Virus record (IMG/VR): IMGVR_UViG_3300028603_000041
Coordinates: 5,998-69,997 of that record
DNA from: a virus
Lineage: Duplodnaviria; Caudoviricetes
Strand: one strand, 5' to 3'
Length of the DNA stretch: 64,000 nt
The position numbers and the translations under genes are program-made. Of the stretch, positions 4,951 through 17,274 are shown piece by piece. Position 1 is the first letter of the stretch. Every line of letters starts with the position of its first letter. Below the pieces are notes generated by a model, which made no database searches, was not told the origin of the DNA, and worked only from the letters and a program-made list of their open reading frames with translations.

Positions 4951-6381
4951 CTATCTCACCTCCTTCTTTTCAAACCAGTTCCCATCTACCGGAGTGGCAT
5001 CCGCTTCAACCTCAAGCGGTACGATAATCCAGTCCCAGTGCTTGCGGATATCCTCAGCCATTATCGGGATCACTTCCTGCTGGTTGGTCTGGAACTCCTC
5101 ATCATGCTCATCAGTTGTAAGCTCATCATGGATCTGTCCAACTATCTTGCTCCTCCACCCCTCCCCTTTACCCTTCCACAGCTTGTTCACCTGTATCAGA
5201 GACCAGAGTAAACAATGGAATGCCGGCCCCTGGATCGGGTAGTTTCCGAGCTGAAACGGAGTTAAAACCCCTTCTACCCGGAACCCTGTGAGCATATCGA
5301 AGTACCCTTTTCTGTTGTAGGCCTCGATATGCTTATCCCGCCATTTCTTGAATCCAGGGAACATATCGGTCCAGAAACCCTCTATGACCTTGATGATGTG
5401 CTTCTCAAAAGCATCATAACTCTTGATGCCTTTTTCCTTCAGGTGTTGTTGCACGGTCTTGTCCGGATCATTTGGCATGCGCAAAGGCATCTCAACCATC
5501 TGCCCCCACAGCCCTCTTGCAGTATTCTCCGGTTGCTGCAGGTAAAACTGCGGGAACACATAGGCATTCTTCCCTGTCTGCCGTATCTCTCCACCGTACC
5601 TACCGGCTTTTTTAGTGCATAGCTCTTGAGGTAGCAGGAAGGCCATAGAAGCGCAGTCCCGGTGCATATCGTCCCCCTGCTCAATGTACCGGATCATATT
5701 CTTGTCCTGATGGTTGCAGGCACTTATCCTGACTTCAATGCCGCCATAATCCCTGCCTACCAGCCGGTGGCCTGGGCGAGGGAGGAAGGCTCTCCTAACC
5801 AGCTTCCTGTCCTGTTCGTGGCGGTTGGGTTGGTTCTGAAAGTTCGGATCTGAGCTTGAACCGCGGTAGCTCCTGGCTCCACCGCCTTTGTCATCATCAT
5901 AGCTGTTCAGGTGGAAGAAAGGGTGGATATATCCGTCTGCCTCGCTCTCCTGCAGTAGGTTCTTGAGGTAGGTGTTACCCATCTTTTGCACGTTCCTGAT
6001 CCGCAACAGCAGCCTGACATCATCCCTACCCAAGGATTCAAGGGCTGTATTATCCACTGAGGCCAGCTGCTGTCCCTTTTTACCGCCCCTTGTTTTCCTG
6101 CTGGTTTGCAGGCCCATATCGGTATAGAGTATTTGTCTTAGTTGGTGATCACTGCCGAAGTTGGTTGAGTTCCGGTACCGCTGCTTGAAAGCTATTCCAA
6201 GATCGGTCTTTTCCAGCTGAGCTGTGAGAGCCTTTTCCTGCCTTGCAAGGTTGGCTATCATCTTTTCGCAGTAATCCCGGTCACACCTTATGCCGTTGAA
6301 TTCGGCCTCAGCCAAGGCTAGGGAGCCCTCATGGAAGAGTTCGTATGCCTCTTTCGTGGTTGCGGTGATCTTAATCGACAT
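4951..6381 (-). CDS. polA: family A DNA polymerase, polymerase domain (split gene)
   Basis: SSSDPNFQNQP, motif A DYGGIEVR, motif B RQTGKNAYVFPQFY, NYPIQG, motif C QIHDEL; no exonuclease domain. Confidence 0.92.
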   Translation of the reverse strand: MSIKITATTKEAYELFHEGSLALAEAEFNGIRCDRDYCEKMIANLARQEKALTAQLEKTDLGIAFKQRYRNSTNFGSDHQLRQILYTDMGLQTSRKTRGGKKGQQLASVDNTALESLGRDDVRLLLRIRNVQKMGNTYLKNLLQESEADGYIHPFFHLNSYDDDKGGGARSYRGSSSDPNFQNQPNRHEQDRKLVRRAFLPRPGHRLVGRDYGGIEVRISACNHQDKNMIRYIEQGDDMHRDCASMAFLLPQELCTKKAGRYGGEIRQTGKNAYVFPQFYLQQPENTARGLWGQMVEMPLRMPNDPDKTVQQHLKEKGIKSYDAFEKHIIKVIEGFWTDMFPGFKKWRDKHIEAYNRKGYFDMLTGFRVEGVLTPFQLGNYPIQGPAFHCLLWSLIQVNKLWKGKGEGWRSKIVGQIHDELTTDEHDEEFQTNQQEVIPIMAEDIRKHWDWIIVPLEVEADATPVDGNWFEKKEVR

Positions 6382-7744
6382 ACCCGAACTCCTTCCTCTG
6401 CTCCATAGCTATAGCGAATTCATATGCACTATCAAGACCGTTTCTTTGTAACAGATCGGTCACTGGTATTTCATCGATACGGTTTAGGGCATTACTGTCT
6501 GCAGCCCTCAGCAGCGATTGAGTATCATCCTTGAAACCCAGTATCCCTAGCCTTGTGTAGGTCTGGAAGGCGACATTCGCATTGGCTCTACGGTTATCCA
6601 ATACATGAGCTGCCGTAACCGTATCCCACCACCACTGCTTGATCTCAAACCCTTCCTTTGCTCTTGTCCAGACATGCTCAAATTTTATGTTTGCCCCGAT
6701 CTTCCGGACCGTTTCAAGCTGCATTAGCTCCCGGTACAGAGCGGCAATCTTTGAGTCATTTAACTGCCACATCCATGCCCACACCTGCTCTGGTCCATCT
6801 GCTATAGAGCAGCTAACTATTCGGTGCTCCTTGCCGTAGGGTTTCAAACCAGTCGTTTCATAATCCAGGGCTATGGTAAGATGGTCAATCTTTAGCTGCT
6901 CTGTCTTTTCTGGATCGGCCTTGTAATCGAGCATGGCCTGGTGGTATTTGGGGTGTTCTTTCCACAACCGCATCCACTCCTTGCTGCCAGGCTTTACTCC
7001 AGCCCAGGGAGCAGATTCTTTGACTAAGCTCCTTGCTTTCCCATACTGCCACAGCTTCAGCAAACGTCCTTCTACCTGGTAGGGTTCGGTTAGCTGGATG
7101 ACATCTGGCTCAAGCTTCTTTGGAAGTAGTTGTTCGGTTAGAGAAAAAGCTCTCTGGATATCTTTTTTCCACAACACGGCAGCGGCCGGTGTTTGGTATT
7201 CGGCCCGCTCAACATAGCTTGGGTGAAAGGTAGGGCAGATCCAGCACCCGAGATCGTGGTCCGGTATAGTTAGGCCACGCCATCTGGATATCGTCAGGTC
7301 GCTATCATGCTTCCACCTTCCGCCTAGTAACGATATCACAGCAGGTCCACCTAGCAGCAGAATCACTTTGGGGTGGAATCTCTGGATCTCATCGAATATG
7401 TGCTTGCGGCACTGAGCTATTTCATCTGGTGTTGGGGTTCTGTTACCGGGCGGTCGGCACCTAACGCTATTTGTTTTTCTGCAATCCCTATCCAGATCAA
7501 TGCCGAGGGCTCTAAACTCCCACCTGACCCTCTGCCCCACCTTACCGATCAGCTGCACTCCCTTCTTGTCTTCATCCTCTCCAGGGGCCTCAGCCAGCAC
7601 AAGGATCTTTTTCCTACCCTCCCCGGTAGGTTCCATCTTCGGATGCAAACAGCCAGTCGCCAGCCCACAGGAAGAACAACCTGTGGTCCTAACTGGAACT
7701 ACTGCTATCTTCTTTAGCGAACTGTGAGTGAATAGCCTAGCCAT
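6371..7744 (-). CDS. family 4 uracil-DNA glycosylase domain fused to 3'-5' exonuclease (N-terminal half of SPO1-like polymerase)
   Basis: AEAPGEDED, NSVRCRPPGNRTP, TFHPSY (UDG); ALDYETTGL, ANIKFE, NGLDS (Exo I-III); likely start ATG 7744. Confidence 0.88.
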   Translation of the reverse strand: MARLFTHSSLKKIAVVPVRTTGCSSCGLATGCLHPKMEPTGEGRKKILVLAEAPGEDEDKKGVQLIGKVGQRVRWEFRALGIDLDRDCRKTNSVRCRPPGNRTPTPDEIAQCRKHIFDEIQRFHPKVILLLGGPAVISLLGGRWKHDSDLTISRWRGLTIPDHDLGCWICPTFHPSYVERAEYQTPAAAVLWKKDIQRAFSLTEQLLPKKLEPDVIQLTEPYQVEGRLLKLWQYGKARSLVKESAPWAGVKPGSKEWMRLWKEHPKYHQAMLDYKADPEKTEQLKIDHLTIALDYETTGLKPYGKEHRIVSCSIADGPEQVWAWMWQLNDSKIAALYRELMQLETVRKIGANIKFEHVWTRAKEGFEIKQWWWDTVTAAHVLDNRRANANVAFQTYTRLGILGFKDDTQSLLRAADSNALNRIDEIPVTDLLQRNGLDSAYEFAIAMEQRKEFGYVD

Positions 7745-7958
7745 GGTAAAGATCCTCCACAAACCGGATAGCCATTGCAGCCACCTGAATGGCTTCTTTT
7801 CGCATACGATCATCTGCCGTGACTAGCTTGCTACCTTTGATGCAATCCCACAATTCATCCAGCTCTTCCTTTATTACTGCCCAGCCTTCGTGGTTACTGT
7901 GAAATGCTGGGTAGTTTTCATATGATCTTTTTATTTCTTCCCGGATTTCGTTTTCCAT
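7737..7958 (-). CDS. all-alpha NTP pyrophosphohydrolase (MazG-like)
   Basis: HEGWAVIKEELDELW..EAIQVAAMAIRF. Confidence 0.65.
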   Translation of the reverse strand: MENEIREEIKRSYENYPAFHSNHEGWAVIKEELDELWDCIKGSKLVTADDRMRKEAIQVAAMAIRFVEDLYHG

Positions 7959-10350: not shown

Positions 10351-11355
10351 CTATTCCTCCAGAGCTACAACGTGGACAAACCCGTTCTCCCCCTCAACCT
10401 TCAGAGCGGTATCGCCAACCGTGACTTTCTTCGCCAGCTTTGCCATTTCCTTGAGGAACAGAGGATGGGACTTGAAAGTGAGGTTATCGCCGGTGTACTT
10501 TAGCCTAAGGGTTTGTTCCGCCCAACCATCCGGCCCTTCGCCCCTGACTGTCATGTTGCCTTTGGTTAGCAGTACAGAAACCTCCTGCTCGTACTTGATT
10601 TTGTCATCCGCCATAACCGCAGCCCAATCCAGGGCTTCATTAAGTTCTTTGGGGAAGGATATCTCTACACCATCATTGATGATGAACCCTGAAAGGTCCG
10701 GATACTCACCCTCCACCATACGCACAGCATAAACCACCCCACCTTCATTGCGGAAATGGAGCCAGTGACCGTTTATTCCATCCTCGGTTGGTTTGTAATC
10801 CTTCAGCTGCTCAAGGTGTTTGGCAACGATTTTGATATCCCCTTCCATCTTTAAGGTAAAGCCACCCTGCCTTGTCATGCGGAACTCATCACAGGTTTCC
10901 ATGAATTCATCGGCGATGTGAACGCAGGTGAGGATCGGCAGGTGCCCGGAGCGTGAGGCTGAAAACAACACATTTTGCAGTGCAGGCAGGAACCCTTCCG
11001 GTATATCATTCCACTCCTCAGGCTCCACCAGCTCCTCGTCCAAAGGCAGCTTGATATCAGGGTCCATCCGTATCCCGGCACGGTTCCTGCCTGCTTTCAG
11101 CTTCAGCTCGTTTTCACCCTCAGCTATCTCTACCTCAACATCCGGGCTGAGCTTAGCGAGGAACTGGTAGAGGGGCTCTGCCGGTACTGCCCCAGTGATG
11201 CCGATCTCTAGCGGTGCCATCACGGCAACCTCATCGTTGAAGGTCCAGGCGTGCCCATCCTTGAAGATGATTGAGGTTGCCTGCTCCAGGATTTCCTTAT
11301 TAGCCAAGCCTGGTTTAACGAGTTCCAGTGTTTTCTTTAGTTCTTGTGTTTTCAT
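10351..11355 (-). CDS. dnaN: beta-type sliding clamp
   Basis: 334 aa, three repeated domains, ILTCVHI, ETCDEFRM, EGEYPDL motif typical of DnaN. Confidence 0.75.
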   Translation of the reverse strand: MKTQELKKTLELVKPGLANKEILEQATSIIFKDGHAWTFNDEVAVMAPLEIGITGAVPAEPLYQFLAKLSPDVEVEIAEGENELKLKAGRNRAGIRMDPDIKLPLDEELVEPEEWNDIPEGFLPALQNVLFSASRSGHLPILTCVHIADEFMETCDEFRMTRQGGFTLKMEGDIKIVAKHLEQLKDYKPTEDGINGHWLHFRNEGGVVYAVRMVEGEYPDLSGFIINDGVEISFPKELNEALDWAAVMADDKIKYEQEVSVLLTKGNMTVRGEGPDGWAEQTLRLKYTGDNLTFKSHPLFLKEMAKLAKKVTVGDTALKVEGENGFVHVVALEE

Positions 11356-11524
11356 CTACCCCTCCGATCAGATAGTTAAAACAGTAACCAGATGTGAACT
11401 TCGGGTCCTGGCAATGGTAATAGGAGAACAACCTGCCTCCAGGGCCATAATCCACAATGAATCTCTCTCTCTCAGCTCTTTGGTTGTTTGGCATTCCAGA
11501 TTCTGACGCTATGTAAATCAGCAT
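11315..11524 (-). CDS. DpdA N-terminal-like module F (only intact copy)
   Basis: MLIYIAS..AERERF..GRLFSYYHC; (GA)6 tract at 11462-11473 is in frame. Confidence 0.7.
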   Translation of the reverse strand: MLIYIASESGMPNNQRAERERFIVDYGPGGRLFSYYHCQDPKFTSGYCFNYLIGGVDENTRTKENTGTR

Positions 11525-11690
11525 TTAATTCCCTCATGCAAAACCTGAATATATGTCTGCGAATGAAGAACGGGCCATTTATTTCTCCGTAGGATAATAA
11601 CCTGCCCAAACACAAGCTACTCGATAATCGAGTAGCTTGTCAGCGGTTGTGTGGTAAGTCAGAACCACCACCAGCAAGGTAAATCCTCAC
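11472..11690 (-). pseudogene. DpdA N-terminal-like module E, in-frame TGA
   Basis: GTG 11690 overlaps the dpdA stop; MRIYLAGGGSDLPHNR*QATRLSSSLCLGRLLSYGEI; TGA at 11640-11642. Confidence 0.7.
11612..11640. repeat. perfect 14-bp inverted repeat abutting the TGA of module E
   Basis: ACAAGCTACTCGAT-A-ATCGAGTAGCTTGT. Confidence 0.9.
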
Positions 11691-12595
11691 AGTCCAAACC
11701 CCCGCTTCTTCTTCATCTTGAACGGCCAGGGCCACTCCGGCAGGTTCTTCTCCAGATCCGCATAATAGATGATATTCAGTTCATCCCGTTTGCGGTAATC
11801 ATTGGACAGCCCTGATTCCACCATTCGCTCAACCTTACCCTTACCGGCCTTTTCCCTGACTGCTTTCTTCTCACACCACCGCTCCCCATCTTTCAGCTCG
11901 TAGCTTGGAGGTTTATCGAACCATTCACTCTTACCGAGGGCATACCCCTTTGATGTGAAGTAATCCAGCACCAACTGTTTCACCCTCTTTGGCATCCGGT
12001 CTATGTGATCCGGGTCCACTGCTGAGTTGGGGGAACGGTTGGATACGGTGACTTTGAAGGGTGGTTCCTGGTAGCTGTACTCCCCATTACGCAATGCGGG
12101 GACGTATACCCCGCCAGTTCTGGCGGTAATGATCCAGCTTGTGCTGTCAACACTATACCAGGGGTAACGTAACATGACAGTGAAATTGGTGACAGCAAAT
12201 CCATGTACCTTTATAATGGGCATACCATCGGAATCAGTTAGATATTTAGAAAACAATGTATCCAACCAAGGGGATAGTTTATCCGTGGTGTTGTTTTGGG
12301 CAACTCCTAATGCGATATAGTCGTGCCCTCTATCAATGTATCGACGAAGCCATTTAATATCGCTACCGAAGTGGAACACCGGTAATGGTTCCAACCCAGC
12401 TTTTTCCATAATGAGTTGGTTTCTAAAGGTAGCATCTGGATTTTTTATAACATCCAGATTAGCGTACACCTCTAAATGCCGCTTGTACTTTTTGATAAAT
12501 TCGATGTATTCTTGGATATCGATCTTGATTCCCTGGGTAAAAGCCGAATAAGCTCCGGAGTCTAAGAATATTTTGATTGGTTTTTTACTTTGCAC
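11687..12595 (-). CDS. dpdA: DpdA-like (TGT-fold) DNA 7-deazaguanine transglycosylase, core starting at the DSG strand
   Basis: IFLDSGAYS, ANLDVI, PVFH, YIALG, VHGFA, PWYSVDSTSW; own RBS GGGAGG before GTG; linked to folE/queD/queE. Confidence 0.85.
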   Translation of the reverse strand: MQSKKPIKIFLDSGAYSAFTQGIKIDIQEYIEFIKKYKRHLEVYANLDVIKNPDATFRNQLIMEKAGLEPLPVFHFGSDIKWLRRYIDRGHDYIALGVAQNNTTDKLSPWLDTLFSKYLTDSDGMPIIKVHGFAVTNFTVMLRYPWYSVDSTSWIITARTGGVYVPALRNGEYSYQEPPFKVTVSNRSPNSAVDPDHIDRMPKRVKQLVLDYFTSKGYALGKSEWFDKPPSYELKDGERWCEKKAVREKAGKGKVERMVESGLSNDYRKRDELNIIYYADLEKNLPEWPWPFKMKKKRGFGL

Positions 12596-12731
12596 GATAT
12601 CCTCCCATGCCTCATGTTGGATTTGATTAGGTTGGCAGAAAAAGAAGGAGTTCAGTCTATCGGCTTTGAAATCGCAAATGTTTCTCTCTCTCTACCAGTA
12701 ACGTAGTGCCCGCTAAATACAAGGTTTGCAT
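12596..12731 (-). pseudogene. DpdA N-terminal-like module D, frameshifted in (AG)5
   Basis: MQTLYLAGTTLLVERE/RNICDFKADRLNSFFF; adding one AG at 12684-12693 gives a continuous frame into dpdA. Confidence 0.75.
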
Positions 12732-12844
12732 ATCTTTATCCTGAACCAACCAATGGTAGGACCAAAGCCTTTTGTCCCACAGGACCAATACCTCTCTCTC
12801 TTAGCCCAGCCCCCGCCCGGAACTCCCGCCAGGTAGATTCTCAT
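12713..12844 (-). pseudogene. DpdA N-terminal-like module C, frameshifted in (AG)5
   Basis: MRIYLAGVPGGGWAKRE/VLVLWDKRLWSYHWL; tract 12792-12801, -1 or +2 AG units restore the frame. Confidence 0.75.
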
Positions 12845-13001
12845 CCTCTCCCCCAACATGGAACAGGAAATACTGCATTATCCGATACCGATCTTCTTTC
12901 AGGTAAGCGTAGGAAAACATCCTGTTTGCTCCGACCTATTCAGCAAACCTTTCCTGATCCACCCCATGCCCCGCAACCCAACCGCTGATGTAGATGTTCA
13001 T
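12801..13001 (-). pseudogene. DpdA N-terminal-like module B, in-frame TAG
   Basis: MNIYISGWVAGHGVDQERFAE*VGANRMFSYAYL; TAG at 12936-12938. Confidence 0.7.
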
Positions 13002-13156
13002 TCCTTTTCTCGATTCTGCAGGTACAAATCCTTGTTGCCTCTTTTGTTATCGACTGCAAGGAAGAAATAGGACAAGAGCCGGCATTCGTACTGTTGAGAA
13101 TCAAGTACCTCTTTCTGCACTTTCTCTAACCAAGTGCTGAGATATTATATCTTCAT
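12998..13156 (-). pseudogene. DpdA N-terminal-like module A, in-frame TAA at codon 4
   Basis: ATG overlaps the folE stop; MKI*YLSTWLEKVQKEVLDSQQYECRLLSYFFL; TAA at 13145-13147 looks like a 3-nt insertion. Confidence 0.7.
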
Positions 13157-13713
13157 GCCCTAGCCCATAGTGTCATGAGTTCATTCCTGACAGCAACCCC
13201 GGCATTGGAATGCTCAAGGAATACTCCTTTGAGGCTGCTGTACCCCATCATGGAGCCCTGTTTCTTAACCCCGCGGCAAGCAATGCAAAGGTGCTTGGCC
13301 TCAATCAGACACGCAGCTCCAACCGGATTCAAATACTGCATCAGGGCTTCTGTAACCTGCTCCCCGATCCGTTCCTGAATCTGCAATCTCCTGGTGTAGA
13401 TATCCAGCAACCTTGCAAGCTTCGATACTCCGATCACCCTACCGTTTGGGATGTAAGCGATCATTGCAGTGCCCCAAAACGGCAGCATATGGTGTTCACA
13501 GGTGCTGTAAAATTCGACCCCTTTCAGGTAGATCAATCCCTTGGCTCCATCCCCATCAAAGTCTTTGAAAACGTCCTCCGGCTTTTGCTTGTAGCCGGCA
13601 AACATTTCATCCCATGAGCGAACCACCCTGGAAGGAGTTTCGAGCAGTCCTTCCCTGGTCGGGTCCTCACCGATATAGCGCAGAAGGCTTACAATATGTT
13701 CCTCGATCTTCAT
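13153..13713 (-). CDS. folE: GTP cyclohydrolase I
   Basis: GEDPTREGLLETPSRV, STCEHHMLPF, GVSKLARL, RRLQIQER, HLCIACRGV. Confidence 0.97.
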   Translation of the reverse strand: MKIEEHIVSLLRYIGEDPTREGLLETPSRVVRSWDEMFAGYKQKPEDVFKDFDGDGAKGLIYLKGVEFYSTCEHHMLPFWGTAMIAYIPNGRVIGVSKLARLLDIYTRRLQIQERIGEQVTEALMQYLNPVGAACLIEAKHLCIACRGVKKQGSMMGYSSLKGVFLEHSNAGVAVRNELMTLWARA

Positions 13714-13746
13714 TCCTCCTCCTTGGTTTCTATTGAACTTTCTCCA

Positions 13747-14622
13747 TCAACGTCCTCTTTTAGAAAACAGACCACGTTTTGGTAGGGGTTTCGACGCTAT
13801 AATTGCTATTTCTGTGGCTACCTCTGGGAACAATATCGGAAAGAAGGACATTAACCATTCATTTGGTAGATATTCGGAAAAGCGCTGATAAAGTTCCTTG
13901 ATGGTAACGTTGTTCTGTTCTTTTTCTATGTAATCGTCAAAATCCTTACGCTTACTAACCAACCCAAATACATTTAGTAGCTCAAACCCTATTTCTTTTA
14001 GTGCGGCGGACAATTCGTCCAAATCCCACTCATATAAATGGGCTTTGTACTGCGTATCGTATGGATCTTTCTTTTCCCGAGTATTTGGGCAAGATATGAA
14101 CAGGATCTTACCTGGTTTGAGAACATTGTGACAGGCTTGCAAAGATTTATACCCAGCTTCTTTTTGCATATGCTCGATGGCCGATGTGTATACAATCAGA
14201 TCAAACTTTTTTTGTAGGTGTTGGTCCATTTCTTCTGCGGAACAAAGAACGTGTTTGATTGGAAATGAGTAATACTCGTCGAGATTTTCGATGGTTTTGA
14301 TACCGCTGCGACGTAATTGTTCCTTAATGTTTTTTTCAGAAATATCAACGCCGGTGTACCCAGCAATGTCCCGTTTATACCAGCGTATCAGAGGGAGCAG
14401 TAAACCCCTTCCACAACAGACGTCTAACACCTGATCGTCTTTCCTCATCATGGTAACAACCTTATGGTGTTGGATGTAATTCATGACGTCCAGCGAACTA
14501 AAAAATCCATCTGCGAACTGTCTGTAAAAGTTTCGCATTTGGTAGGTAGTACAATATATTTCCCTTGGGTTCATATCATCTTCGACCCTGAAAACGATCT
14601 TTTTACCATCGTACTCTTTCAT
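13747..14622 (-). CDS. class I SAM-dependent methyltransferase in the deazaguanine cassette
   Basis: VLDVCCGRG, GVDIS, TSAIEHM, LKPGKILFISCPN. Confidence 0.85.
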   Translation of the reverse strand: MKEYDGKKIVFRVEDDMNPREIYCTTYQMRNFYRQFADGFFSSLDVMNYIQHHKVVTMMRKDDQVLDVCCGRGLLLPLIRWYKRDIAGYTGVDISEKNIKEQLRRSGIKTIENLDEYYSFPIKHVLCSAEEMDQHLQKKFDLIVYTSAIEHMQKEAGYKSLQACHNVLKPGKILFISCPNTREKKDPYDTQYKAHLYEWDLDELSAALKEIGFELLNVFGLVSKRKDFDDYIEKEQNNVTIKELYQRFSEYLPNEWLMSFFPILFPEVATEIAIIASKPLPKRGLFSKRGR

Positions 14623-14653
14623 GTTGTTCCTCCTTAACTGAAGGAAGCGGTTC

Positions 14654-14685
14654 GACCTTAGTAGTGCCGAGGAACTACTAAGGTC
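14654..14685. other. 12-bp intergenic hairpin
   Basis: GACCTTAGTAGT / ACTACTAAGGTC with an 8-nt loop. Confidence 0.7.
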
Positions 14686-14711
14686 TCTACTGATTGTGTT
14701 TCGGTACTTTT

Positions 14712-15572
14712 TTAGAAGGGATATTTATTGATCAACTTCAATGCCGAGAAACATCTACGGACGTTGCTGTATTCGGCCTGAATGGTGGTTTGTTTTACTA
14801 GAACTCCAAACGCTTCCACTTTTGTTATGATGGTTTTTAGATCAGCTTCCGGGTTTTCGCAGATTATTTTGGTTACTTGAGAAACGGCTGATGTGGGTTT
14901 TCCCTCACCATCCCCGGCCTTTTCCGGTTTCTTTCCCTTCTCACCGCCAGCAGCCTTCCCAGCTTTCTCCGGCTTCTTCCCCTTACCAGCCTTTTCCGCC
15001 TTAGGTGTCTGCTCAGCTACCGCGGCCTTGGCCAGTTCCTCTCTCATGGTGCCGAACAGTTCCCACGCCTTTTCTCCACCGTCGACTGCCAAGATGGTAT
15101 CCTTGTCCTCAGGTGTGAGTAAGGACACATGCTCTCCAAGCTCCATCTTGCACTGATCATCCGTCATTTCCGCGATGTTGGGTCGGTCTTTCTCCTCCCA
15201 AACCACCTCAGCCAAAATCTCAAAGGCTCTCCTCTCAGGAGCAACCTCTACCGGTTCGGTCTTCTTTCCTTTGTCCTTAGCCTTGGCGGCGGCCGCAGCA
15301 GCTGCCTTTCCTTTGTCGTTTCCTTTCTTTCCTGCCATTTCAATCTCCTTTTGGTAGTCTTGAATGAAGTATTCCGTCATCCTGGTTCCGAACCGGACGG
15401 CCCTCTCGTACTCAGCCCGCTCGCTATCGTAGCGGGAAATTAGCTTGCTGTAAGTATGCTTGTTGTCCCTGAACTCGCCCTTGCCAAGCTCCAGACTCAT
15501 CTGGTTGATGGCTTGGATCAAAGTTGCTCTAGTTTGGTTCTCTACGTTTTGGATTGCTGTCATGACGTTCAT
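14712..15572 (-). CDS. Lys/Ala-rich hypothetical protein, possible DNA-binding protein
   Basis: KAEKAGKGKKPEKAGK repeats and a helical C-terminal domain; strong RBS. Confidence 0.55.
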   Translation of the reverse strand: MNVMTAIQNVENQTRATLIQAINQMSLELGKGEFRDNKHTYSKLISRYDSERAEYERAVRFGTRMTEYFIQDYQKEIEMAGKKGNDKGKAAAAAAAKAKDKGKKTEPVEVAPERRAFEILAEVVWEEKDRPNIAEMTDDQCKMELGEHVSLLTPEDKDTILAVDGGEKAWELFGTMREELAKAAVAEQTPKAEKAGKGKKPEKAGKAAGGEKGKKPEKAGDGEGKPTSAVSQVTKIICENPEADLKTIITKVEAFGVLVKQTTIQAEYSNVRRCFSALKLINKYPF

Positions 15573-15595
15573 CTCTTCTCTCCTTTTGACCTTGC

Positions 15596-16015
15596 CTATT
15601 GGGAGTCTTCTACGGTGTTCATGGCAGCTAGTGCTTTGGCTACCGTGCCTCTACGCTGAATGATCTGGTTTGCCTGGTTGCGGGGGAGCTTCCTTTTGCG
15701 GCAGTTGTTGATGTGCTTGAGGATGTCCCCGGCGTCAGCTTGGACGTACTGGGCAACAGCAGCGGCGAACTCTTTCATAGAGCGATCTTGCCTGCTGCTG
15801 TTGCATTTTTTGCAGCTTGTGACCAGGTTGCTTGGGCTGTTGCTACCGCCCTTGCTGTGCGGGACGCAGTGGTCCATGCTAAGCTGAATCCCATCTTCCA
15901 AGCTAGCACCGCACCAGGCGCAGCTAAGTCCGCCCCGGAGGTAGATGGCTAAACGAGTGGTGGGGCGGCACCAGTTCATCCCCTGCCAGTTGTTTTTTCG
16001 ATCCCCGTTTGCCAT
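15596..16015 (-). CDS. HNH endonuclease-family protein
   Basis: CAWCG, MDHCVPHSKGGSNSPSNLVTSCKKCNS; likely start ATG 16015. Confidence 0.85.
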   Translation of the reverse strand: MANGDRKNNWQGMNWCRPTTRLAIYLRGGLSCAWCGASLEDGIQLSMDHCVPHSKGGSNSPSNLVTSCKKCNSSRQDRSMKEFAAAVAQYVQADAGDILKHINNCRKRKLPRNQANQIIQRRGTVAKALAAMNTVEDSQ

Positions 16016-16054
16016 CTTGTGTTCCTTTGTTTGAAATTTCCTCATCCGTTGATT

Positions 16055-16086
16055 AATATATAATGGTTAAATTTTAAAAAGTAAAG
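16055..16086 (-). promoter_or_regulatory. early promoter, exact 32-bp repeat (copy 1)
   Basis: identical to 25626-25657; minus strand reads TTTACT-N17-TATATA. Confidence 0.75.
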
Positions 16087-16135
16087 AACTATTTTGCCTT
16101 TTTTCCGCAAAATCGGCAAAAAAGTTTCACTTTTT

Positions 16136-16831
16136 TTAAGCCACCCCGATCAGTTTATGTAGCTGGAGGTTCAAGGTGATCGGCAGCTTGCTTTCTATGA
16201 TCCTTTTTGCCAATGTTTCCAGATCAATAACTATACCATTCGGGAATGATCTGTATCCGAATGCTCCGAGAGGCTTGTTCATAATCGGCGATATGGTAAG
16301 CCCAATCCAGGGCCAGGTCTTCAGCATTTCAGCAGCCTGCTCAAAGGCTCTATCCACATCTGCCCAGGAAGCCACAACAAATTTTACATAACACCCGTTA
16401 ATCCCGAGATCACCGGGGTAGAAGGTGTATGGAACTCTTCCCATAGCATCCATACCCTTGCAGTCCACAACCCAGTAATCGACCATGTACTGGGTGCCGA
16501 TTGGTAGGGTTCCATTGGTTTCAACCTGGATTTGTACCATCGGGTCACGCTTTTTCAGCTTGAAAATGAGCTCCTTTAATGCCTCTTTCTGTAGCAGTGG
16601 CTCCCCACCTGTAATGAGGATCTGTTCTCTGCCGTACTCCAGCAGCCTGCCCGCCAGCATATCAACATTCCATTCTTCCCCAGCCATAGGGTCACAAGCC
16701 CATTCGGTGTCACAGAACGGGCAGTGAAGAAAGCACCCAGCTAGACGGAGGAACAAGGTCGGAGAGCCCTGCTGGAACCCGCCTACCTCTCCGCTCAAGC
16801 TCTCGAATATTTCAGCAACCTGGATTTTCAT
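16136..16831 (-). CDS. queE: 7-carboxy-7-deazaguanine synthase (radical SAM)
   Basis: EIFESLSGE, FLRLAGCFLHCPFCDT, ITGGEPLLQ, VETNGT, LQLHK. Confidence 0.95.
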   Translation of the reverse strand: MKIQVAEIFESLSGEVGGFQQGSPTLFLRLAGCFLHCPFCDTEWACDPMAGEEWNVDMLAGRLLEYGREQILITGGEPLLQKEALKELIFKLKKRDPMVQIQVETNGTLPIGTQYMVDYWVVDCKGMDAMGRVPYTFYPGDLGINGCYVKFVVASWADVDRAFEQAAEMLKTWPWIGLTISPIMNKPLGAFGYRSFPNGIVIDLETLAKRIIESKLPITLNLQLHKLIGVA

Positions 16832-17274
16832 TTAGTTCTCCCATCTATGAAGACGTGAGCTTTGTATTCTGCCCAACTGTCTGGTGTTTCAGTCACCCGC
16901 AACCGTTCCAGCCTGCATCCATCCGGCAGAGCTGCTTCAATGTTTTGTGTCAGCCATCCGCATATTGTTTCCGCAGTAGCAGGTCTGTAGTAAGATCCAT
17001 CTGTTTCTTTACGGAACCTACCAGCACAGAAAGCCAGAGGACCGGTAACAAAGAACTCAGTCAGATCCTTATGATCTAGCTCCAACAATAACCCATTCAC
17101 AATAGCTTTGAGTTTACTGAAATCGATCACCATAGTTGGATAACCGTTCTCATCCCAGCCTGCGATCTCTACTTCTACCTCAGCGTTATGGCCGTGAAAA
17201 TCAGCGCATTTCCCGTCATAACCAGGCAACCTGTGCCCGTAACAAAAGCTGAATTTCTTGGTTACTGTGATCAT
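16828..17274 (-). CDS. queD: 6-carboxytetrahydropterin synthase
   Basis: FCYGHRL, CADFHGHN, IDFSKLK, LDHKDL, TAETI, VTETPDSWA. Confidence 0.95.
   Translation of the reverse strand: MITVTKKFSFCYGHRLPGYDGKCADFHGHNAEVEVEIAGWDENGYPTMVIDFSKLKAIVNGLLLELDHKDLTEFFVTGPLAFCAGRFRKETDGSYYRPATAETICGWLTQNIEAALPDGCRLERLRVTETPDSWAEYKAHVFIDGRTK

What the first reader, a model, noticed from the sequence alone, without database searches (positions are those of the whole stretch)
11315..13156. Split DpdA transglycosylase with a library of six alternative N-terminal modules, five switched off
Seen: six translationally coupled small ORFs surround dpdA (A 12998-13156, B 12801-13001, C from 12844, D from 12731, E 11472-11690, F 11315-11524). 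All share MxIY(L/I)(A/S)(G/S/T)...RLxS(Y/F). A has an in-frame TAA, B an in-frame TAG and E an in-frame TGA. C and D are frameshifted in (AG)5 tracts, and only F is open. Neighbouring folE, dpdA, the MTase and the clamp gene are intact. The dpdA ORF begins just before IFLDSG and has its own RBS. Established: in TGT barrels the DSG strand is preceded by beta1 and a beta2 NTYH-type segment near the substrate site. Inference: the modules are interchangeable beta1-alpha1-beta2 subunits that complete the barrel in trans or by fusion. Each could set a different target sequence, with one expressed at a time, as an hsdS-like specificity switch for 7-deazaguanine DNA modification. I know of no described system like this.
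Basis: partly seen in the sequence, partly recalled or inferred. Interest (0 to 1): 0.92.

Follow-up and report, generated by a model that had tools for sequence, protein, structure and literature searches.

The report
Split phage DpdA with switchable modules
A phage enzyme that swaps guanine in DNA for a 7-deazaguanine base is encoded without the first quarter of its barrel fold. That quarter is supplied by a family of tiny neighbouring genes, several of which carry slippery DNA repeats that turn them on or off; I found no paper describing this.

Summary
Six module-like mini-ORFs (A-F) flank a 302-aa "headless" DpdA1-type core. A carries an in-frame TAA, B a TAG and E a TGA. C and D are frameshifted inside AG-repeat tracts, and only F is open.

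The modules are real protein parts. Relatives carry the A, B, C and D types fused in frame to the core. A model of a fused form shows the module as beta1-alpha1-beta2-alpha2 of a DpdA/TGT barrel. A complex prediction docks F onto the core strands that would close the barrel.

The architecture is family-wide. Of 79 related viral and assembly loci, 49 have headless cores, and I counted 188 open against 33 broken modules. Free-standing modules are under purifying selection. A profile search finds 721 protein clusters, mostly 46-117 aa.

All 18 frameshifted modules analysed break at an AG-repeat, poly-G or poly-C tract. These tracts are strongly enriched in modules and differ in length between relatives.

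"One module ON at a time, hsdS-like" is not supported: relatives usually keep 2-3 modules open. Different target specificities remain untested. Reads could not be obtained.

This scan has already noted the same architecture in other genomes. I found no paper describing it.

The parts
13153..13713 (-). folE (GTP cyclohydrolase I), intact. Its stop overlaps the start of module A.
   Evidence: Pfam PF01227, E 1e-62; ATGA overlap seen in the sequence.
12998..13156 (-). Module A ('YLSTW' type), broken by an in-frame TAA at codon 4 (13145-13147). Compared with relative L081, an upstream module (G') is missing here, and the junction lies in the shared 5' ends of the modules.
   Evidence: Against the open L081 orthologue, pN is 0.049 and pS 0.627. 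The type is fused to the core in P0004/L001.
12801..13001 (-). Module B ('NGWVAG' type), broken by a TAG at 12936-12938 where L081 has GAG.
   Evidence: pN 0.085, pS 0.328. The type is fused to the core in P0005/L083.
12732..12844 (-). Module C ('GVPGGGW' type), frameshifted in the (AG)5 tract at 12792-12801. The second half (RLWSY) lies in the -1 frame and runs into the D start codon.
   Evidence: The tract is 4 nt shorter than in L081, where C is open. The type is open with a 14-nt tract in L081, L106 and L107, and shifted with 9-12 nt tracts in four genomes.
12596..12731 (-). Module D ('AGTT' type), frameshifted in AGAGAGAGAGA at 12683-12693. The second half (RLNSFF ... AWED) is in frame with the core, so one more AG unit would give a D-core fusion.
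   Evidence: The tract is 4 nt shorter than in L081, which is also out of frame, on the other side of the in-frame length. D is fused in frame in P0008/L082. A C-D-core fusion exists as P0013.
11687..12595 (-). Headless DpdA1-type core (302 aa). It starts 7 codons before IFLDSG, at a GTG with a GGGAGGA ribosome-binding site at 12600-12606.
   Evidence: PHROG 887, E 3e-50, matching profile positions 52-233, so about 50 N-terminal positions are missing. 3118 relatives with a bimodal length of about 300 or about 348 aa. 35-41% identity to Seuratvirus and Nipunavirus DpdA.
11472..11690 (-). Module E, decayed. Its GTG overlaps the core stop, it has a TGA at 11640-11642, and a perfect palindrome (11612-11642) sits where other modules have the RERE tract.
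   Evidence: Not detected by the module profile. Positionally equivalent to the E and E2 modules of L081.
11315..11524 (-). Module F, the only open module (69 aa). It has its own GAGGGA ribosome-binding site, carries (GA)6 at 11462-11473, and its end overlaps the clamp gene.
   Evidence: Profile E 2e-7. Orthologues are open in 6 of 6 clade genomes. Predicted to dock on the core.
10351..11355 (-). DNA polymerase sliding clamp. This is the conserved downstream neighbour of the module array.
   Evidence: PHROG 947, E 1e-22. Same synteny in L081-L083 and in cultured DpdA1 phages.

Best explanation
This is a DpdA1-type DNA 7-deazaguanine transglycosylase from a large uncultured phage clade. In this clade the first quarter of the TIM barrel (beta1-alpha1-beta2-alpha2, about 45 aa) has become an exchangeable part.

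The catalytic core is translated from its own start just before the DSG strand, so it lacks two barrel strands. The missing quarter comes from paralogous mini-proteins (45-75 aa) encoded in arrays on both sides of the core. Alternatively, the core-proximal module is fused in cis when its reading frame is in register.

AG-repeat, poly-G and poly-C tracts at fixed places inside the modules change length by replication slippage. This turns single modules, or the fusion to the core, on and off.

In this phage only F is open, so the working enzyme is most likely core plus F. C and D are off through AG-tract length and could revert. A, B and E were inactivated recently by other lesions.

Shown here: the anatomy, the homology, the family-wide architecture, purifying selection on free modules, and the concentration and variability of the repeats.

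Inferred: binding in trans, slippage as the switching mechanism, and, most speculative, that different modules give the enzyme different DNA-context preferences.
For: 1. Each module type occurs fused in frame to the core in relatives: A in P0004, B in P0005, C in P0054 and others, D in P0008, and C+D in P0013. Long forms align from residue 1 with cultured DpdA1 enzymes.

2. An AlphaFold2 model of P0008 (pLDDT 84; module residues 57-66) shows strand 3-7, helix 13-22, strand 26-29 and helix 40-48, followed by the DSG strand at 55-58. The best structural match is bacterial DpdA 7ui4 (Z 17.8, rmsd 3.3 A, 268 residues aligned, model 1-333). Model residue 1 aligns with residue 39 of Z. mobilis TGT.

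3. Complex prediction of core plus F: score 0.87, best of 3 controls 0.00. This mark was reached by 58 of 80 solved complexes and 2 of 110 mismatched pairs. The runs agree in at least 69% of contacts, and the partner's pLDDT is at least 56. F residues 31-35 pair with core residues 8-13, and F residues 2-4 pair with core residues 146-152. Because this is one domain cut in two and resembles solved TGT barrels, the pass may reflect that likeness.

4. Of 79 loci, 30 are fused and 49 headless; 42 of the headless loci have at least one open free module nearby. I counted 188 open and 33 broken modules, usually 2-3 open per locus.

5. Free modules show pN/pS of about 0.37 pooled, and about 0 to 0.14 in close pairs. 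A profile of 56 free modules finds 721 representative clusters, and almost all of the best 150 are 46-117 aa.

6. All 18 frameshifted modules analysed break at an AG tract of 7-19 nt or at a poly-G/poly-C tract of 7-9 nt. (AG)>=5 tracts number 41 in 33 kb of module DNA against 9 in 620 kb elsewhere; poly-G>=7 tracts number 16 against 15. Codon choice in the RE tract favours AGA and GAG (P 3e-4 and 3e-5).

7. Tract lengths and open/closed states differ between relatives at the same module.

8. The docking residues coincide with invariant columns of both the core and the module alignments, while the module loops vary.

9. Fused forms keep an internal ATG before the core (26 of 29). A Shine-Dalgarno-like motif precedes it in 14 of 29, against 8% for other internal ATGs.
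Against: - No experiment or read data supports this. Binding in trans is a prediction, and the module part of the model has only moderate confidence.
- Seven headless loci show no open module within the DNA held. The core might therefore work alone, or modules may lie elsewhere or escape the profile.
- In this window five of six modules are broken, three of them by lesions that are not repeat slippage.
- The record lacks QueC, which relatives have. The whole system could therefore be decaying here.
- Within-population variation in tract length was not observed. Two samples carrying the same phage (L107, L108) have identical tracts.
- Nothing tested here bears directly on target specificity.
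Confidence: 0.62

Rival explanations
1. The locus is decaying. The modules are real quarter-barrel subunits but functionally redundant isoforms. In this phage the array is being lost under relaxed selection, perhaps together with QueC. The repeat-associated frameshifts are simply the most likely mutations, not a switch that selection has favoured.
For: Five of six modules are broken here, three of them by lesions other than repeat slippage. No QueC is found in a record estimated at 93% complete. Relative L082 gets by with a single fused module. Broken modules with stop codons also occur elsewhere.
Against: Several module types are conserved across phages whose cores are only about 50% identical, and they are under purifying selection. 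A, B and C show low pN/pS against L081, so they were constrained until very recently. The codon bias that builds AG repeats, and the roughly 86-fold enrichment per kb of (AG)>=5 tracts in modules, are hard to explain without selection or a self-sustaining repeat process. folE, queD, queE and the core are intact.
Confidence: 0.2
2. The modules have a different role. The mini-proteins bind the core, or the host TGT, as regulators, assembly chaperones or decoys against a host factor that targets DpdA, rather than as alternative specificity subunits.
For: Fused forms nearly always coexist with free modules (28 of 30 loci). This is unexpected if a cis module already completes the barrel. Tandem two-module mini-proteins and C-D-core fusions exist.
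Against: The predicted contacts are exactly those of the missing barrel strands. Headless cores outnumber fused ones, and most have free modules beside them. The module residues conserved across types are the strand residues, as expected for a structural part.
Confidence: 0.1
3. The lesions are sequencing or assembly artefacts. The stops and frameshifts in this metagenome-derived record are errors, and the real phage has intact modules.
For: There are five lesions in 1.8 kb while all neighbouring genes are intact. The low pN/pS of the broken modules fits genes that are in fact functional.
Against: The lesions are of four different kinds. The same type of repeat-tract frameshift recurs in many independent assemblies from different projects. 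Tracts of 10-14 nt are short for assembly errors. Reads could not be consulted.
Confidence: 0.05
4. The broken frames are expressed by programmed recoding. Ribosomal frameshifting or transcriptional slippage at the AG tracts, and stop-codon read-through, would produce full modules or fusions from them.
For: The breaks recur at one conserved position in the modules. A strong hairpin starts at the TGA of E.
Against: Both shift directions occur, and the DNA tract lengths themselves differ between relatives. The three stop codons are all different. No known slippery heptamer is present. Open alleles exist with other tract lengths.
Confidence: 0.03

Closest known systems
Phage DpdA1 7-deazaguanine DNA transglycosylases (Seuratvirus/Nonagvirus such as CAjan and 9g, Nipunavirus such as PaMx25 and iggy, Rhizobium Kleczkowskavirus)
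   Same: Homologous over the whole length: 35-41% identity for the core, and long forms align from residue 1. The synteny is the same, running folE ... dpdA ... clamp, polymerase. The expected chemistry is the same (PMC6884629, PMC10516641).
   Different: The cultured enzymes are single polypeptides with one fused N-terminal quarter. The small ORFs that flank them are not modules. Here the quarter is split off, multiplied into paralogous mini-genes and fitted with repeat tracts.
Bacterial DpdA of the Dpd system (Salmonella Montevideo, PDB 7ui4; PMC10164549)
   Same: Best structural match (Z 17.8). [quoted passage not shown] Its beta1/alpha1 and beta2/alpha2 insertions (Ins1, Ins2) lie on the DNA face, which is where the module types differ.
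   Different: The bacterial enzyme is one chain of about 400 aa, has a CXCX2CX22H zinc site and works with DpdB. The family here shows no invariant cysteines, and its first quarter is a separate, exchangeable protein.
Phase-variable DNA methyltransferases (phasevarions: Type III mod genes with coding-region repeats in Haemophilus, Neisseria, Helicobacter). From my own knowledge.
   Same: A DNA-modifying activity is switched by length changes of a simple repeat inside the coding sequence, and alleles differ between close relatives.
   Different: Those are bacterial. They switch a whole enzyme on or off and mostly use tetra- or pentanucleotide or homopolymer repeats. Here the host is a phage, and the repeats sit in small alternative subunits or decide whether a subunit is fused to the core.
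Type I restriction-modification hsdS specificity shufflons, and multispecific phage C5-methyltransferases (SPR, phi3T) with several target-recognising domains. From my own knowledge.
   Same: One catalytic machine combines with several alternative recognition parts, including silent or inactive copies, and is used in the contest with restriction systems.
   Different: hsdS switching works by site-specific inversion between inverted cassettes. The multispecific methyltransferases carry their recognition domains in one chain. Here all modules are co-oriented separate genes, no inversion is involved, and several modules are open at once.
Fragment complementation and modular-evolution models of (beta/alpha)8 barrels (HisF/HisA half-barrels, quarter-barrel hypotheses). 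From my own knowledge.
   Same: A barrel assembled from a (beta/alpha)2 quarter plus the remainder as separate chains.
   Different: Those are laboratory constructs or inferred ancestors. This would be a natural, widespread case with many interchangeable quarters.

Membership tests
TGT/DpdA transglycosylase superfamily | (beta/alpha)8 barrel of the TGT/DpdA type | tested here: met
   A model of the fused relative P0008 matches 7ui4 (Z 17.8, rmsd 3.3 A, 268 aligned) and bacterial, archaeal and human TGTs (Z about 17). Foldseek E 1e-6 to ArcTGT.
TGT/DpdA transglycosylase superfamily | Conserved Asp of the DSG(G/A) strand (Asp102 in Z. mobilis TGT, Asp95 in S. Montevideo DpdA) | tested here: met
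   FLDSGA is invariant in 44 long and 57 short family members and is present in the window core. Equivalence to the catalytic Asp rests on homology.
TGT/DpdA transglycosylase superfamily | Nucleophilic Asp on a later barrel strand | tested here: inconclusive
   An invariant Asp lies in YPWYSVDSTSW. No residue-level superposition was available to assign it.
TGT/DpdA transglycosylase superfamily | Structural zinc site (CXCX2CX22H in DpdA, PMC10164549) | tested here: not met
   No invariant or nearly invariant cysteine appears in either family alignment.
TGT/DpdA transglycosylase superfamily | Match to curated family models | tested here: inconclusive
   PHROG 887 'queuine tRNA-ribosyltransferase', E 3e-50. 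NCBIfam DpdA NF041059 gives only 20.5 bits against a cut-off of 200. No Pfam family matches.
Phage 7-deazaguanine DNA modification system (DpdA1 type) | Linkage to preQ0-pathway genes FolE, QueD, QueE and QueC | tested here: inconclusive
   FolE, QueD (PTPS) and a QueE-like radical SAM enzyme are present. QueC is absent from the 70-kb record but adjacent in relatives.
Phage 7-deazaguanine DNA modification system (DpdA1 type) | Insertion of a 7-deazaguanine base into DNA | not testable with these tools
   Needs LC-MS of phage or plasmid DNA.
Split enzyme with trans-acting quarter-barrel subunits (architecture proposed here) | Core lacks beta1-beta2 and has its own start codon | tested here: met
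   PHROG match starts at profile position 52. GTG with GGGAGGA. 49 of 79 loci are headless.
Split enzyme with trans-acting quarter-barrel subunits (architecture proposed here) | Free-standing modules are conserved protein-coding genes | tested here: met
   pN/pS about 0.37 pooled and near 0 in close pairs. 721 representative clusters, mostly 46-117 aa.
Split enzyme with trans-acting quarter-barrel subunits (architecture proposed here) | Module binds the core and restores activity | not testable with these tools
   Only a prediction is available: score 0.87 against 0.00 for the best control.
Simple-repeat contingency (phase-variable) locus | Simple repeats concentrated in the coding sequence | tested here: met
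   (AG)>=5: 41 in 33 kb of module DNA against 9 in 620 kb elsewhere. Poly-G>=7: 16 against 15. Three of three (AG)5 tracts in the window lie in modules.
Simple-repeat contingency (phase-variable) locus | Repeat number differs between relatives and sets the reading frame | tested here: met
   C and D tracts differ by 4 nt between the window and L081. Tables of clade alleles. L002, L003, L004 and L072 differ at AG, G and C tracts. All 18 frameshifts analysed lie at repeats.
Simple-repeat contingency (phase-variable) locus | Length heterogeneity within a population, or measured switching | not testable with these tools
hsdS-like recombinational specificity switch | Inverted silent cassettes exchanged by a recombinase, with one active copy at a time | tested here: not met
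   All six modules are co-oriented. Relatives have 2-3 open modules at once, and up to 5.

The most novel reading that the evidence does not exclude
Each module type gives the DpdA core a different DNA-context preference, or a different base preference. Repeat slippage in the modules then makes a phage population a mixture of genomes with different 7-deazaguanine modification patterns. This would be bet-hedging against both classical restriction enzymes and modification-dependent nucleases. It would also be the first natural enzyme whose TIM barrel is completed by interchangeable quarter-barrel subunits.
Probability: 0.3. Interest if true: 0.92.

Novelty: new variant of a known kind. Interest (0 to 1): 0.82.

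Why it matters
DpdA enzymes are the entry point of every known 7-deazaguanine DNA modification in phages. What sets their sequence specificity and their level of modification is an open question.

A natural split form offers direct experimental handles: many exchangeable first-quarter subunits, whose differences lie in the loops that face DNA in the solved bacterial enzyme. One core could be combined with a panel of 50-residue partners.

It would also bring contingency-locus logic, known from bacterial methyltransferases, to a phage anti-restriction system.

For protein evolution, it would be a living example of a (beta/alpha)8 barrel assembled from a quarter plus three quarters.

In practical terms, hundreds of unannotated mini-genes beside dpdA in viral metagenomes would gain a name.

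Tried and rejected
Neither the lesions nor tract heterogeneity could be checked in reads.
- Near-identical genomes: megablast against phage records found nothing. A gapped pattern across the D tract found nothing in viral contigs. The metagenome scan gave only relatives at or below 64% identity.
- Stop-codon reassignment: rejected, because the three in-frame stops are TAA, TAG and TGA.
- A link to the two modification motifs of phage CAjan: the small ORFs flanking dpdA in a Seuratvirus, a Nipunavirus and a Rhizobium phage are not modules. Those phages and Sulfitobacter phage M39 have one fused module only.
- Curated families: no Pfam, NCBIfam or PHROG family matches module F, and no Pfam or NCBIfam family matches other mini-proteins tested.
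- The hairpin in E as a terminator: no T-run follows it, and the scan reports no terminator.
- Sorting modules into discrete types by single-linkage BLAST: this merged nearly all of them into one cluster. The types are therefore described by motif only.


Full report
**What is in the sequence**

All genes between 8.9 and 20 kb lie on the minus strand. A 302-aa ORF (11687-12595) matches PHROG 887, "queuine tRNA-ribosyltransferase", with E 3e-50. The match covers only profile positions 52-233, so about 50 N-terminal positions are missing. The ORF starts at a GTG seven codons before IFLDSG, five bases after GGAGG.

Upstream, between folE and this core, lie four units that each begin M-x-I-Y-L-(A/S) and carry R-L-x-S-(Y/F) about 25 residues later. 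Two more lie downstream, before the clamp gene.
- A has TAA as codon 4.
- B has a TAG.
- E has a TGA.
- C and D change frame inside AGAGAGAGAG(A).
- F is open (69 aa) and has its own ribosome-binding site.

After its tract, D continues in the frame of the core. After its tract, C continues into the ATG of D.

A profile made from 49 fused N-termini finds A, B, both halves of C, the second half of D, and F. It finds nothing else in the 64 kb. (AG)5 occurs three times in the window, all in modules, against 0.23 expected. E is recognised only by its motifs and position.

**What the modules are**

A search with the core gave 3118 relatives with a bimodal length, about 300 or about 348 aa. The long forms carry exactly these modules fused to the core:
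- the A type in P0004;
- the B type in P0005 and P0007;
- the C type in many, for example P0054;
- the D type in P0008;
- C and D in tandem in the 395-aa P0013.

Long forms align from residue 1 with DpdA of cultured Nipunavirus and Seuratvirus phages at about 37% identity. The core alone is 35-41% identical to them.

An AlphaFold2 model of P0008 has pLDDT 84 overall and 57-66 for the module. It places a strand at residues 3-7, a helix at 13-22, a strand at 26-29 and a helix at 40-48, ahead of the DSG strand at 55-58. Its best structural match is bacterial DpdA 7ui4 (Z 17.8, rmsd 3.3 A, 268 residues aligned). Model residue 1 aligns with residue 39 of Z. mobilis TGT, just before beta1.

So the module is beta1-alpha1-beta2-alpha2 of the barrel, and the core ORF lacks two of the eight strands.

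**Binding in trans (predicted, not shown)**

A complex prediction of the window core with F supports binding. Both chains were given as family alignments.
- Score 0.87, best of 3 controls 0.00.
- The mark was reached by 58 of 80 solved complexes and 2 of 110 mismatched pairs.
- The runs agree in at least 69% of contacts, and the partner's pLDDT is at least 56.

F residues 31-35 (RLFSY) pair with core residues 8-13, the DSG strand. F residues 2-4 pair with core residues 146-152, the last barrel strand. This is the geometry that closes the barrel.

This is one domain cut in two and resembles solved TGT barrels, so the pass may reflect that likeness.

The contact residues coincide with the invariant columns of both alignments, while the loops of the modules vary.

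**The architecture is family-wide**

I scanned 80 viral contigs and several assembly contigs with the module profile.
- Of 79 loci with the core motif, 30 have a fused module and 49 are headless.
- 42 of the 49 headless loci have at least one open free-standing module in the DNA held.
- 28 of the 30 fused loci also have free modules.
- In total, 188 modules are open and 33 broken. Most loci have 2-3 open modules (range 0-5).
- A module ORF starting at the core's stop codon is especially common.

Free modules are under purifying selection. pN/pS is about 0.37 pooled at saturating pS. In close pairs, pN is 0-0.05 against pS 0.12-0.39.

A profile of 56 free modules finds 721 representative clusters among 1.84 billion proteins. 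Almost all of the best 150 are 46-117 aa, with a few tandem or fused forms.

No Pfam or NCBIfam model matches the mini-proteins tested, and no PHROG model matches F.

Cultured relatives have one fused module and no extra ones. These were a Seuratvirus, a Nipunavirus, a Rhizobium phage and Sulfitobacter phage M39. The split, multi-module form therefore belongs to an uncultured clade.

**Repeat tracts as switches**

Every one of the 18 frameshifted modules I could analyse breaks at a simple repeat. The repeat is either an AG tract of 7-19 nt at the conserved "RERE" position, or a poly-G or poly-C tract of 7-9 nt.

These tracts are concentrated in modules:
- (AG)>=5: 41 in 33 kb of module DNA against 9 in 620 kb of other DNA;
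- poly-G>=7: 16 against 15.

Within RE tracts, AGA makes up 61% of Arg codons and GAG 60% of Glu codons. Elsewhere the figures are 29-38% and 33% (P 3e-4 and 3e-5).

Relatives differ at the same tracts:
- Against L081 (core 79% identical), the window's C and D tracts are each 4 nt shorter while the flanks are conserved.
- C is open in L081.
- D is out of frame in both genomes, on opposite sides of the in-frame length.
- Across the clade, the C type is open in three genomes (14-nt tract) and shifted in four (9-12 nt).
- The D type is open in five and shifted in four.
- The F type is open in six of six.
- L002, L003, L004 and L072 differ at AG, G and C tracts, and in which modules are open.

Both shift directions occur. 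This fits gain or loss of repeat units in DNA and argues against a fixed ribosomal frameshift.

Where the proximal module is in register, a fused enzyme results. Otherwise the core's own start is used. Fused forms keep that internal ATG (26 of 29). A Shine-Dalgarno-like motif precedes it in 14 of 29, against 8% for other internal ATGs.

**This phage in particular**

L081 carries the same array in fuller form: G', A, B, C, D, core, E, E2, F. A, B, C, E and F are open there.

In the window:
- G' is deleted. The junction lies in the shared 5' ends and carries the TAA.
- B has TAG where L081 has GAG.
- E is a remnant in which a perfect palindrome replaces the RERE tract.

The broken modules were constrained until recently:

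| Region | pN | pS |
|---|---|---|
| A | 0.049 | 0.627 |
| B | 0.085 | 0.328 |
| First half of C | 0.026 | 0.42 |
| Core | 0.141 | 0.864 |

The record is 69,997 bp and estimated 93% complete. It has no QueC, whereas relatives keep QueC beside folE. The working enzyme here is therefore most likely core plus F, in a locus that has recently lost most of its repertoire.

The structural reading is supported: the modules complete the barrel, either in trans or by fusion.

The regulatory reading is not. Several modules are normally open together, all are co-oriented, and three of the five "off" states here are not reversible switches. This is not an hsdS-like system with one module on at a time.

The specificity idea is untested. 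It gains plausibility from the solved bacterial DpdA. There, the beta1/alpha1 and beta2/alpha2 insertions help form the DNA-binding surface and flank the active site (PMC10164549). Those are the two places where the module types differ.

**Literature and earlier notes**

Full-text searches found nothing relevant. I searched for DpdA together with frameshift, phase variation, TIM barrel and subunit. I also made targeted look-ups in the main DpdA papers (PMC6884629, PMC10516641, PMC10484667, PMC10164549). None mentions split enzymes, mini-genes or repeat switches.

Earlier notes of this scan describe the same mini-subunit architecture in other genomes (e1-5359594, e1-5351293). A separate note on this window flags the AG tracts (e1-5847259). 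I tested these points independently here.

**Verdict**

This is a real and unusual architecture of a known enzyme family. The window holds a degenerate but informative example. The main gaps are read-level evidence for switching and any functional test.

Noticed in passing
window 13153-17274 and the whole record: The 70-kb virus record (CheckV 93% complete) has FolE, QueD and a QueE-like radical SAM enzyme but no QueC. Relatives keep QueC next to folE. Here a SAM methyltransferase (13747-14622), a 286-aa protein of unknown function and an HNH endonuclease sit between folE and queE/queD.
   Followed up: partly
window 11612-11642: A perfect palindrome (13-bp stem, 3-nt loop; RNA fold z-score -4.7) begins at the in-frame TGA of module E. 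It occupies the place where the related E2 module of L081 has its AG tract. No T-run follows it.
   Followed up: partly
window 13145-13156 against L081:100-300; L004 against L002/L072: Whole modules are deleted precisely between the conserved 5' ends (ATGAARATHTAYYT...) of neighbouring modules. Module order also differs between relatives: L083 has C, G', D, A, B, while L081 has G', A, B, C, D. This suggests frequent recombination among module starts.
   Followed up: partly
P0013; P0121, P0122; L109:1544-1800: Tandem modules occur in a single chain: a 395-aa C-D-core fusion and two-module mini-proteins of 99-117 aa. In L109 the D module has no start codon of its own, so it could be expressed only as a C-D-core fusion when the C tract is in register.
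   Followed up: no
alignments A1 and A5 (core family): The family has no invariant cysteines, so the structural zinc site described for bacterial DpdA and the TGTs appears to be missing.
   Followed up: no
L078:3240-5100: In one viral contig, a second dpdA copy with a fused module (341 aa) starts about 760 nt after the first core motif, giving two transglycosylase genes in tandem.
   Followed up: no
window 6371-7813: A 480-aa ORF combines a uracil-DNA-glycosylase-superfamily domain with a 3'-5' exonuclease domain, directly upstream of a family A DNA polymerase ORF. Relatives show the same UDG-bearing gene after the clamp.
   Followed up: no
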